Below, in pieces: positions 47,591 to 48,328 of a stretch of DNA of 64,000 nucleotides (position 1 is the first letter of the stretch; each line of letters begins with the position of its first letter). The notes beneath the pieces were generated by a model. That model searched no databases and was not told where the DNA came from. It saw only the letters and a list, made by a program, of their open reading frames with translations. Both the position numbers and the translations under genes were made by a program. Source of the stretch: a phage; the NCBI GenBank assembly GCA_014687725.1, contig GCA_014687725.1_4094.1. The stretch is one strand, 5' to 3'.

Positions 47591-48328
47591 TTAGACTGAA
47601 TTGTTAGGATAATATCTCCCACGTCCCCATATTATTCGCACAGCACCACCACCAGCAGCCGTATAAGAAAAATTATCCCATATACTACCACCACCACCAT
47701 ACATCTTACCAGCACCACCACTACCAGCACCACCATTATATGAACCATCGTATCTACCGCCAATACCATTAGCACCTTGAACAATGATACCAGTACCACC
47801 ACCCGTACCAATGAACGAGGTATTATAGAATGCACCACCACCACCGCCGCCGCCAGCACCATTTTCACCAGTGATTGCATCTCCGTTACCACCTTTACCA
47901 GTGTAGCCACCAGCACCACCACCAATGACTGCACCACCACTTACACCAGCGTTGCCCCCATTACCACCACCATCATTAATAGCGTTAGCAGCTTTCCCAC
48001 CTAGTCCACCAACCCTATATTCACCAGTGAAGCTAACACATAGTTTTTCAGTTCCACGATATAAACCGTTTTCAACTGCTGTAGTAGTGTTGGGATGTGT
48101 AAGAGAAACACTTAAGTACTCACCACTAGTAACCGGAATATTATTACGCCACGATAAGCCGCCACCAGCACCACGTTGACCACCCGGCGAAATAACACAT
48201 ACTGATATTTCGGTAACGCCAGCAGGAACTGTAAATTGTGTTGTTCCTATTGTCGTGATTAATTGTTCACCATCTGGCTTATATTCAATTTTATTCCCGT
48301 ACTTTACCATTCTTCCAAAAGGTAACAT
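47591..48328 (-). CDS. glycine-rich protein with the same MLPFGRM-KYGN N-terminal tag (unit 7, 245 aa)
   Basis: MLPFGRMVKYGNK then Gly-rich GGGNGGNAGVSGG...GGGAVRIIWGRG. Confidence 0.7.
   Translation of the reverse strand: MLPFGRMVKYGNKIEYKPDGEQLITTIGTTQFTVPAGVTEISVCVISPGGQRGAGGGLSWRNNIPVTSGEYLSVSLTHPNTTTAVENGLYRGTEKLCVSFTGEYRVGGLGGKAANAINDGGGNGGNAGVSGGAVIGGGAGGYTGKGGNGDAITGENGAGGGGGGGAFYNTSFIGTGGGTGIIVQGANGIGGRYDGSYNGGAGSGGAGKMYGGGGSIWDNFSYTAAGGGAVRIIWGRGRYYPNNSV

What the first reader, a model, noticed from the sequence alone, without database searches (positions are those of the whole stretch)
47591..48328. A glycine-rich protein carries the same N-terminal tag as the RCC1 paralogs
Unit 7 starts MLPFGRMVKYGNK and sits behind the same upstream module, but its body is a glycine-rich domain (GGGNGGNAGVSGG...GGGAVRIIWGRG) with no RCC1 blades. 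An identical tag fused to an unrelated domain argues that the tag plus upstream module is an autonomous unit that can be combined with different cargo domains.
Basis: partly seen in the sequence, partly recalled or inferred. Interest (0 to 1): 0.65.

Follow-up and report, generated by a model that had tools for sequence, protein, structure and literature searches.

The report
Shared virion tag on swappable adhesin heads
In this giant E. coli phage, a glycine-rich protein built like a tail-fibre tip starts with the same 12 amino acids as its eleven RCC1 neighbours. In related giant phages this short N-terminal tag sits on at least four unrelated binding domains that are nearly all found in virus particles, so it most likely attaches interchangeable "heads" to the virion.

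Summary

The tag is clade-wide. I found 59 tagged proteins in about 8 jumbo phages of 350-380 kb: 33 RCC1, 8 LamG, 5 Kelch, 5 glycine-rich and the rest unassigned. Codons vary synonymously between genera, so selection acts on the peptide. In phage CBB, 9 of 11 tagged proteins are in the virion proteome (p = 2e-8), including the glycine-rich orthologue and all six structural proteins that GAP32 lacks.

The "upstream module" is an ordinary terminator + late-type promoter + Shine-Dalgarno and is separable from the tag. Module plus tag form a ~110-nt repeat where cassette-exchange breakpoints between isolates fall.

Best reading (about 0.55): the tag is an N-terminal docking peptide that anchors interchangeable adhesin heads on the particle. 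The anchor is unknown. I found no published description of the tag.

The parts
47591..48328 (-). Glycine-rich protein CDS (245 aa + stop); equals 121Q gp243 / Sharanji gp113. Mis-annotated in phAPEC6.
48293..48328 (-). Tag: codons 1-12, MLPFGRMVKYGN. It is 36/36 nt identical to the unit starting at 46305. Residues M1 L2 P3 F4 R6 M7 Y10 G11 N12 are invariant in 10 RCC1 paralogues that are otherwise 21-30% identical.
48272..48292 (-). Short linker (residues 13-19, KIEYKPD). Low or moderate AlphaFold confidence.
47594..48271 (-). Cargo domain (residues ~20-245): TNF-like beta-sandwich plus glycine-rich lattice; distant PF21722 relative. Ends in the family motif GGGAVRIIWGRGRYYP.
48333..48340 (-). 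Shine-Dalgarno AAAGGAGG.
48345..48359 (-). Promoter-like TAAATA-N3-TATAAT with no -35 element. The same motif lies closely upstream of 121Q gp31 and gp597 (virion structural proteins) and gp553 (tail tube).
48364..48392 (-). Intrinsic-terminator-like hairpin GCCAGTACAAAGTACTGGC + T-run that ends the preceding unit (48400-49590).
47563..47585 (-). Terminator-like hairpin that ends the glycine-rich gene. It is also the start of the next unit's module.
53305..54453 (-). Tagged RCC1 unit (382 aa), first of the array. Promoter-like motif at 54484.
52122..53231 (-). Tagged RCC1 unit (369 aa).
50902..52050 (-). Tagged RCC1 unit (382 aa). It is 99% identical to 121Q gp242, which in 121Q lies on the other side of the glycine-rich gene.
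49644..50831 (-). Tagged RCC1 unit (395 aa). 100% identical in phage UB; at most 26% identical to any unit in 121Q, phAPEC6 or Sharanji.
48400..49590 (-). Tagged RCC1 unit (396 aa). It precedes the glycine-rich gene in all five isolates compared.
46376..47518 (-). Tagged RCC1 unit (380 aa). In the AlphaFold model, residues 1-21 have no secondary structure.
45130..46305 (-). Tagged RCC1 unit (391 aa).
43934..45121 (-). Tagged RCC1 unit (395 aa). It has no upstream module, only an SD 8 nt after the preceding stop.
43043..43852 (-). Tagged, C-terminally short RCC1 unit (269 aa). Its phAPEC6 orthologue gp007 was detected in virions.
41493..42662 (-). Tagged RCC1 unit (389 aa) without an upstream module.
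40268..41420 (-). Decayed last unit: a 74-aa ORF with a degenerate tag (MLPFGRIITSSKK; 41196-41420) followed by a tag-less 298-aa RCC1 ORF (40268-41164).

Best explanation
The ORF encodes a virion-associated adhesin 'head'. Its body is a TNF-like sandwich that carries a glycine-rich lattice, the fold used as the receptor-binding end of the cyanophage Pam3 tail fibre.

Its first 12 residues are not part of that fold. They are a flexible N-terminal address peptide with the motif M-[LI]-P-F-x-x-[ILM]-x-x-Y-G-N. A second class reads MLPFPIISNTN. Rak2-like jumbo phages put this peptide on a whole set of small putative ligand-binding proteins: RCC1 and Kelch propellers, LamG lectin folds and glycine-rich heads.

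Inferred mechanism: late in infection each cassette is transcribed from its own late-type promoter. The folded head is then incorporated into the particle because its N-terminal peptide docks into a common acceptor site on a structural protein. Candidates for that site are the hair-like fibres on tail and capsid, or other peripheral tail structures. The result is a mixed, multi-specific set of surface binders.

At the DNA level in Asteriusvirus, the ~110-nt stretch of terminator + promoter + SD + tag codons is repeated before most units (not those starting at 45121 and 42662). It provides the homology for swapping, reordering, gaining and losing cargo cassettes between co-infecting phages.

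Shown: the tag, its clade-wide modularity, peptide-level selection, virion association of tagged proteins, the fold of the cargo, and breakpoints falling in the repeat.
Inferred: docking as the function of the tag, an external location, the identity of the anchor, and ligand binding.
For: 1. Modularity. Of 59 tagged proteins in about 8 phages, 33 are RCC1-like, 8 Laminin_G_3, 5 Kelch and 3 (5 by homology) Gly_rich_2. Only M1, P3 and F4 are invariant across all of them.

2. Selection on the peptide. Between genera the motif is kept with synonymous changes: Pro CCT/CCA/CCG, Tyr TAC/TAT, Gly by four codons, Arg AGA/AGG. Within one phage all cargos share that phage's own tag variant, as expected if they share a partner.

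3. Virion association.
- CBB_144, 247, 536, 537, 548, 549, 551, 552 and 553 are all tagged and all in the CsCl-virion ESI-MS/MS proteome (PMC5259590 Table 4, text and supplement).
- That is 9 of 11 tagged proteins against 55 of 554 overall, hypergeometric p = 2.4e-8.
- All six structural proteins that CBB has and GAP32 lacks are tagged.
- Six phAPEC6 RCC1 paralogues are virion proteins (PMC7247149). GAP32_001 is a virion protein too.

5. In other phages the same domain is the C-terminal end of proteins of 500-1700 aa. One of them (P0122) fuses two RCC1 propellers to it and sits in a tail-fibre gene cluster.

6. The RCC1 paralogue model also leaves residues 1-21 unstructured.

7. The tag contains no Glu or other conserved protease motif. 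The tryptic peptide IAPYQILYEMK (residues 14-24, preceded by K13) of CBB_144 was found in virions, so the N-terminal region is not trimmed beyond residue 13.

8. Late expression. TAAATA-N3-TATAAT also precedes tail-tube and other structural genes.

9. Cassette exchange. Isolates carry different sets and orders of units. Blocks of at least 97% identity run from about -70 of one ATG to +35..+44 of the next.
Against: - No structure or experiment locates any tagged protein on the particle. Mass spectrometry of purified virions cannot tell outside from inside.
- The acceptor protein is unidentified.
- The link to the hairs is weak. GAP32 was not reported in PMC5259590 to have whiskers, yet it has tagged, MS-detected proteins (GAP32_001, and 530/531 per PMC5259590).
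- Proteins of 25-40 kDa cannot themselves be 119-nm hairs.
- Some tagged genes lie in non-structural neighbourhoods: CBB_144 sits downstream of nrdD, directly before nrdG, and CBB_247 beside endonuclease VII. An untagged-type homologue in Seunavirus lies beside the DNA polymerase.
- The tag peptide itself (residues 1-13) was not among the MS peptides searched, so retention of the tag is not proven.
- Peptide counts for RCC1 paralogues are low (1-4 unique peptides).
- Within Asteriusvirus the tag is also identical at synonymous sites, which gene conversion alone could produce.
- The window protein does not reach any Pfam threshold.
Confidence: 0.55

Rival explanations
1. Capsid-targeting signal. 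The tag works like the T4 capsid-targeting sequence of internal proteins. It would direct the tagged proteins into the prohead, where they become inner-body or internal proteins. This is the 'DNA condensation protein' reading used in the annotations and by the phAPEC6 authors.
For: - The tagged proteins are in purified virions.
- These phages are distant T4 relatives with gp20/21/22/23-like head genes, and phAPEC6 has an inner body of unknown composition.
- From my own knowledge, T4 internal-protein loci are also hypervariable between isolates. That would resemble the cassette turnover seen here.
Against: - The tag has no conserved Glu or other protease site.
- In virions, CBB_144 still has the peptide that starts at residue 14 after K13.
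- The pI values of the window's tagged proteins are 5.3-9.2, not strongly basic.
- The cargo folds are lectin or adhesin types. The closest solved relatives of the glycine-rich domain are all distal tail parts.
- A fused RCC1 + glycine-rich protein sits in a tail-fibre cluster.
Confidence: 0.15
2. Assembly or chaperone recognition signal. The tag is recognised transiently by a phage chaperone, attachment catalyst or modifying enzyme that folds, oligomerises or delivers these proteins. It is not itself the physical anchor in the finished particle.
For: - The peptide is unstructured and conserved on unrelated folds.
- Pam3-type glycine-rich fibres need a dedicated chaperone.
- 121Q encodes GroES-like, gp63-like, ClpS-like and ClpA-like proteins.
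- The tag peptide was not seen by MS.
Against: - No chaperone gene accompanies the cassettes.
- A single chaperone for propellers, LamG folds and glycine lattices is harder to rationalise than a single docking socket.
- Within-phage uniformity of the tag fits either model.
Confidence: 0.15
3. No protein-level function. The shared 5' end is kept by gene conversion, or because the promoter-SD-first-codons block is an optimised expression cassette copied with every duplication.
For: - In the window, the tag codons are identical even at synonymous sites and are contiguous with the conserved upstream module.
- Recombination breakpoints fall there.
Against: - In Munch, CBB, XbC2, BF and fHe-Yen9-04 the upstream module is absent, and the codons differ synonymously while the peptide is kept.
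- The motif is retained on unrelated cargos across at least four genera.
- The motif tracks virion incorporation (p = 2.4e-8).
Confidence: 0.05

Closest known systems
Cyanophage Pam3 tail fibre gp24 (PDB 7YPX), and more distantly the gp38 adhesins of S16/T2-type phages
   Different: Pam3 gp24 docks to the baseplate through an N-terminal two-helix trimerisation domain and has an adjacent Tfa-like chaperone. The window protein has only a 12-residue unstructured tag plus a 7-residue linker, and its neighbours are RCC1 genes. Oligomeric state is unknown.
Pfam PF21722 (Gly_rich_2, 'glycine-rich domain-containing protein')
   Same: Sequence homologues found at E down to 1e-16 carry PF21722. The orthologue Munch_544 scores 25.6 bits against a cut-off of 24.3. 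The conserved motifs are shared: GGGL-W/Y-RNNI-V-PGE, NDGGGNGG, GGAGGY-G-GG, AVRIIWG.
   Different: The window protein itself gives no Pfam hit at E <= 0.01. It is a divergent subfamily (phrog_4474) that carries the clade-specific tag.
T4 capsid-targeting sequence of internal proteins (own knowledge: about 10 N-terminal residues that carry IPI-III, Alt or foreign proteins into the prohead and are cut off by gp21)
   Same: A roughly 10-12-residue N-terminal peptide shared by unrelated cargo proteins of one phage and correlated with presence in the particle. The loci are variable between isolates.
   Different: There is no protease site in the tag and no evidence of removal. The cargo folds point to the outside of the particle. 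There is no sequence similarity.
Conserved N-terminal anchor modules of exchangeable tailspikes and fibres (own knowledge: CBA120 TSP1-4, G7C gp63.1/gp66, K1-5-type adaptors); cohesin-dockerin as a general analogy
   Same: One docking element is combined with many different functional heads. The heads are exchanged by recombination at the conserved junction.
   Different: Those anchors are folded domains of about 70-150 residues on large trimeric enzymes. Here the element is a 12-residue peptide on small, probably non-enzymatic binding domains, each with its own promoter and terminator.
Mycobacteriophage Bxb1 gp33 'tail wing brush' (PDB 9D93)
   Different: Different phage type (siphovirus). 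No shared tag, and no paralogue array with other cargos.

Membership tests
PF21722 Gly_rich_2 glycine-rich domain | Score above the Pfam gathering cut-off (24.3 bits) | tested here: not met
   The window protein gives no hit at E <= 0.01. The orthologue Munch_544 scores 25.6 bits and two further tagged orthologues also match.
PF21722 Gly_rich_2 glycine-rich domain | Significant full-length sequence homology to recognised members | tested here: met
   phmmer hits over residues ~17-244 to proteins with precomputed PF21722, for example P0038 at E 1.4e-16. There were 377 hits at E <= 1e-3 in the representative library. The 70-sequence alignment has 13 invariant columns.
Pam3 gp24-type tail fibre (TNF-like + glycine-rich head) | TNF-like sandwich plus glycine-rich lattice fold | tested here: met
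Pam3 gp24-type tail fibre (TNF-like + glycine-rich head) | N-terminal alpha-helical trimerisation/baseplate-docking domain | tested here: not met
   Only 19 residues precede the domain, and the model has no helix there.
Pam3 gp24-type tail fibre (TNF-like + glycine-rich head) | Adjacent dedicated Tfa-like chaperone gene | tested here: not met
   Both neighbours are tagged RCC1 genes. A tail-fibre assembly gene exists elsewhere in 121Q (gp608).
Pam3 gp24-type tail fibre (TNF-like + glycine-rich head) | Host-receptor binding at the distal loops | not testable with these tools
   Needs adsorption or binding assays.
RCC1-like paralogue family of the array (phrog_4219, PF25390/PF00415) | RCC1 blades / seven-bladed propeller | tested here: not met
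   The glycine-rich ORF has no RCC1 or WD40_RLD hit, whereas 33 other tagged proteins do. PHROG assigns it to phrog_4474, not phrog_4219.
MLPF-tagged virion protein set of Rak2-like jumbo phages (defined here) | N-terminal M-[LI]-P-F-x-x-[ILM]-x-x-Y-G-N directly at the start codon | tested here: met
   MLPFGRMVKYGN, with the SD 5-12 nt upstream.
MLPF-tagged virion protein set of Rak2-like jumbo phages (defined here) | Presence in purified virions | tested here: inconclusive
   The orthologue CBB_144 was detected (5 peptides, 34% coverage). The protein of this phage group could not be detected in the phAPEC6 study, because the ORF was annotated in the wrong frame.
T4-type capsid-targeting sequence | Tag ends in a prohead-protease site ((L/I)xE in T4; own knowledge) and is removed | tested here: not met
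   No Glu at any conserved tag position in 43 tags. A virion peptide starts at residue 14 after K13.
T4-type capsid-targeting sequence | Cargo located inside the capsid | not testable with these tools
   Needs immunogold labelling, protease shaving or cryo-EM.

The most novel reading that the evidence does not exclude
The 12-residue MLPF tag is a transferable address label. It plugs any folded head domain into one socket on the hair-like fibres (or another repeated peripheral site) that cover the tail and capsid of Rak2-like jumbo phages. The 'hairs' would then be a programmable, multi-specific adhesin display. Its repertoire (RCC1, Kelch, LamG, glycine-rich heads) would be reshuffled between phages by recombination at the tag-coding repeat. 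The two tag classes (..YGN and PIISNTN) would address two different sockets.
Probability: 0.3. Interest if true: 0.8.

Novelty: new variant of a known kind. Interest (0 to 1): 0.62.

Why it matters
Rak2-like jumbo phages (121Q, phAPEC6, CBB, GAP32 and relatives) carry unexplained hair-like fibres, and dozens of their virion proteins have no assigned function. Their arrays of 'RCC1 / DNA condensation' genes have been read as DNA-packing factors.

A shared N-terminal tag that marks a set of about 10 virion proteins per phage gives three things:
- It reassigns these proteins to a single functional class, most plausibly surface binders.
- It gives a concrete list of candidates for the whisker-associated proteins. 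All six structural proteins that CBB has and GAP32 lacks are tagged.
- It offers a directly testable 12-residue handle for displaying foreign proteins on jumbo phages, and for finding the acceptor protein.

It also explains how the array evolves: whole cassettes are exchanged at a ~110-nt repeat. Finally, it corrects an annotation error that hid the glycine-rich protein from the phAPEC6 proteome.

Tried and rejected
- Pfam and NCBIfam scans of the window protein found nothing.
- Literature searches for the tag (MLPF), for RCC1 paralogues with a conserved N-terminus, and for cryo-EM of Rak2-like hairs found no description. The jumbo-phage comparative review and the Sharanji, phi92, Hua et al. 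and mycobacteriophage papers had nothing relevant.
- I asked whether the other common leader of stand-alone glycine-rich proteins (M[LIF]E[LM][LM]...) also marks several cargos within one phage. The contexts of P0021, P0007 and P0122 and a Seunavirus locus showed no co-tagged neighbours apart from a tandem glycine-rich pair. This was left open.
- I considered donor-strand-type polymerisation through the N-terminal peptide and rejected it. The cargos have unrelated folds, so they cannot all offer an acceptor groove (inference).
- I considered an N-degron/ClpS reading and rejected it. From my own knowledge, Met-Leu is not processed by methionine aminopeptidase.
- The acceptor protein could not be sought, because complex prediction and chimeric inputs are not available.
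- dN/dS against Sharanji (11 synonymous and 14 non-synonymous differences; 0.42) rests on too few changes to say much.

Full report
WHAT IS THERE

The window is from an Asteriusvirus jumbo coliphage. The finding's ORF is 100% identical in protein to 121Q gp243 and its SP27 counterpart, and 85-100% identical in 18 isolates. The ORF at 47591..48328 (-) is intact (245 aa). It starts ATG TTA CCT TTT GGA AGA ATG GTA AAG TAC GGG AAT behind an AAAGGAGG Shine-Dalgarno.

A degenerate pattern for the tag matches 12 times in the window against 0.05 expected. All matches are starts of minus-strand genes between 41420 and 54453. A six-frame scan of the rest of the 348-kb 121Q genome found no other ORF of at least 60 aa beginning M[LIVF]PF.

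Ten RCC1 paralogues that are only 21-30% identical to one another have M1 L2 P3 F4 R6 M7 Y10 G11 N12 invariant. The glycine-rich gene has no RCC1 signal at all.

THE UPSTREAM MODULE

The module has three parts:
- An intrinsic-terminator-like hairpin, GCCAGTACnnnGTACTGGC with a T-run. On the array strand the scan found it after nine units; in total the region has 19 terminator-like sites against 7.1 +/- 2.7 in shuffles.
- TAAATA-N3-TATAAT with no -35 element. Sigma-70-type sites are not enriched.
- The Shine-Dalgarno sequence.

The same TAAATA-N3/4-TATAAT lies closely upstream of 121Q gp31 and gp597 (both virion structural proteins) and gp553 (tail tube). I therefore read it as a late-type promoter.

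The module is ordinary gene punctuation and is separable from the tag. The units starting at 45121 and 42662 lack it. Tagged genes in Munch, XbC2 and CBB are close-packed without it.

THE CARGO

Sequence searches place residues ~17-244 in a large family of viral glycine-rich proteins; many members carry Pfam PF21722. The window protein itself stays below Pfam thresholds. Its orthologue in Salmonella phage Munch passes (25.6 against 24.3 bits).

With a 70-sequence alignment AlphaFold gives pLDDT 93.6 and pTM 0.89. Only residues 1-~17 are of low confidence.

Fold comparison gives:
- Foldseek against the PDB and BFVD agrees.

[quoted passage not shown] In the window protein a 12-residue peptide and a short linker take the place of that docking domain.

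Elsewhere the same domain is the C-terminal end of proteins of 500-1700 aa. One of them (P0122, 1013 aa) consists of two RCC1 propellers followed by the glycine-rich domain. It closes a tail-fibre gene cluster containing a wedge protein, Caudo_TAP, Tail_spike_N and Fibritin_C. The two cargo types of this array therefore work together in fibres in another lineage.

THE TAG IS CLADE-WIDE AND MODULAR

- Munch has nine RCC1 genes starting MIPF[AT]RIL.YGN, with a glycine-rich gene (VIPFTKMLTYGN) embedded among them.
- fHe-Yen9-04 and Serratia BF have RCC1, two glycine-rich and LamG-like genes starting MLPFPIISNTN or ...YGN.
- GAP32_001 (RCC1) and GAP32_002 are tagged.
- XbC2_581-586 run RCC1 - LamG - unknown - LamG - Kelch - RCC1. 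Five of these six were checked and all start MLPFP...; XbC2_586 is cut off at the locus edge, so its start was not seen.
- In CBB, the Kelch proteins (550, 552, 554), LamG proteins (548, 551), proteins 536, 537, 549, 553 and 247, and the glycine-rich CBB_144 are all tagged.

A Pfam scan of 59 tagged proteins gives 33 RCC1-like, 8 Laminin_G_3, 5 Kelch and 3 Gly_rich_2. Across all 59 only M1, P3 and F4 are invariant.

Between genera the codons vary synonymously while the peptide is kept. Selection therefore acts on the peptide. Within one phage all cargos share that phage's own variant. Two tag classes (..YGN and PIISNTN) coexist in BF, fHe-Yen9-04 and XbC2, and each class occurs on several cargo types.

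Exact-pattern scans of IMG/VR found both classes only in genomes of 348-378 kb.

THE TAG TRACKS VIRION INCORPORATION

Nine of the eleven tagged CBB proteins that I found are in the ESI-MS/MS proteome of CsCl-purified virions. These are CBB_144, 247, 536, 537, 548, 549, 551, 552 and 553 (PMC5259590 Table 4, text and supplement). The background is 55 of 554 proteins, giving p = 2.4e-8. Eleven is a lower bound, because I did not scan the whole CBB genome.

The authors singled out six structural proteins that CBB has and GAP32 lacks. They did so while looking for the genes behind CBB's whiskers. All six are tagged, which they did not note.

phAPEC6 virions contain six RCC1 paralogues (PMC7247149), and GAP32_001 is structural.

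phAPEC6 'gp004' is an out-of-frame ORF laid over an intact glycine-rich gene; (7716-7325) mod 3 = 1. That study therefore could not have detected the protein.

A virion peptide of CBB_144, IAPYQILYEMK, begins at residue 14 directly after K13. The N-terminal region is therefore not trimmed further than the tag. The tag peptide itself was not found.

DNA-LEVEL BEHAVIOUR

I compared the array with 121Q, phAPEC6, UB and Sharanji. Every isolate has a different set and order of RCC1 cassettes.
- Window unit 3 is 99% identical to 121Q gp242, which lies on the other side of the glycine-rich gene.
- Units 4 and 9 are 100% identical to UB units but at most 27% identical to anything in the other three isolates.
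- The glycine-rich unit is single-copy, 95-100% identical, and always follows the same 396-aa unit.

Blocks of at least 97% nucleotide identity begin about 70 nt upstream of one ATG and end 35-44 nt into the next unit. The breakpoints therefore lie in the ~110-nt terminator-promoter-SD-tag repeat. It also explains why the tag is identical at synonymous sites within this genus.

MECHANISM AND RIVALS

The best-supported reading has four parts:
- The tag is an unstructured N-terminal docking peptide. The RCC1 model (pLDDT 75) also leaves residues 1-21 without structure.
- It incorporates a set of small lectin- or adhesin-like heads into the particle at a common acceptor.
- The glycine-rich protein is the Pam3-type head of that set.
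- The cassette array is a recombining repertoire.

Confidence is about 0.55 for docking on the outside of the particle. It is higher, about 0.8, for the weaker claim that the tag is a virion-incorporation marker.

The main rival is a T4-like capsid-targeting signal. Four observations argue against it: the tag has no protease site, the pI values are near neutral, the cargo folds are adhesin types, and the fused homologue sits in a tail-fibre context. Mass spectrometry cannot exclude it.

A transient chaperone or assembly signal remains possible. A purely nucleotide-level explanation is contradicted by the between-genus comparison.

The link to the hairs is only suggestive. GAP32 also has tagged structural proteins, and these small proteins cannot themselves be 119-nm filaments.

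NOVELTY

The gene is deposited as 'hypothetical', and the RCC1 genes as 'DNA condensation' proteins. The domain family and its fold are known. I found no mention of the shared N-terminal tag or of its link to virion proteins in the searchable literature.

The principle of one docking element combined with many heads is known from tailspike anchor domains, the T4 capsid-targeting sequence and dockerins. A 12-residue tag serving at least four unrelated folds across a jumbo-phage clade is a new variant of that kind.

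Noticed in passing
L002 (phAPEC6 MK817115) 7325-8059, compared with annotated gp004 at 7716-8018: phAPEC6 gp004 is annotated in the wrong frame. It reads the Gly codons as a poly-Val ORF, equivalent to window 47632-47940 (-). It overlies an intact 244-aa glycine-rich gene, so the published virion proteome could not have detected that protein.
   Followed up: yes
L018, L003 and L031 (phage CBB): All six MS-verified structural proteins that CBB has and GAP32 lacks (CBB_144, 247, 536, 537, 551, 552) start with the MLPF tag. The CBB authors had singled these out while looking for the genes behind the whiskers.
   Followed up: yes
window 40268-41420 (-): The last unit of the array is decayed. 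It consists of a 74-aa ORF with a degenerate tag (MLPFGRIITSSKK), a divergent promoter region, and a separate tag-less 298-aa RCC1 ORF. 121Q has a second split unit (gp240/gp239).
   Followed up: partly
window 43043-43852 (-) and the gap 42663-43042: This RCC1 unit is C-terminally short (269 aa) and is followed by about 380 nt of non-coding DNA. It is nevertheless 98-100% conserved between isolates, and its phAPEC6 orthologue gp007 was found in virions (3 peptides).
   Followed up: partly
L033 (Logan SRR12907740 contig) 1238-1858; protein P0002: One metagenome assembly has the glycine-rich gene with the start codon and tag precisely deleted between two GGGAAT hexamers (SD region and tag end). 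It also has an internal 39-aa deletion. This is either a natural tag-less variant or an assembly artefact.
   Followed up: partly
L032 10001-13042 (protein P0122; 153-kb ENA contig): A 1013-aa protein joins two RCC1 propellers to a C-terminal glycine-rich domain and starts MFELLSVG. It lies at the end of a tail-fibre gene cluster (wedge protein, Caudo_TAP, Tail_spike_N/Fibritin_C).
   Followed up: partly
Proteins P0005-P0235: Outside the Rak2-like clade, most stand-alone glycine-rich proteins of ~245 aa begin with a different short leader, M[LIF]E[LMT][LM]... (MLELL, MIELL, MFEMM). Rarer leader types include MKRFPGNIIT... and MSFG.PVRNG.GIGL. These may be lineage-specific docking peptides of the same kind.
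   Followed up: partly
Serratia BF (L023), fHe-Yen9-04 (L013, L035), XbC2 (L015), UViG 3300042256 (L034): A second tag class, MLPFPIIS[NHK]T[NTH], coexists with the ..YGN class in the same phages. It occurs on RCC1, LamG and glycine-rich cargos.
   Followed up: partly
window 7215-8369 (-), motif at 8406: A 384-aa untagged gene of unknown function has the same TAAATA-N3-TATAAT motif about 20 nt upstream of its start. It may be another late or structural gene.
   Followed up: no
L003 (CBB) 6001-6765, compared with 121Q 229286-231874 (L007): In CBB the glycine-rich gene sits downstream of nrdD, directly before nrdG, and away from the other tagged genes. In 121Q that slot holds an unrelated 110-aa ORF, and the glycine-rich gene is inside the RCC1 array. 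The gene has therefore moved between loci.
   Followed up: no
window 1-40000 (+): There are long runs of same-strand ORFs of 100-170 aa with no annotation in 121Q. I did not examine them.
   Followed up: no
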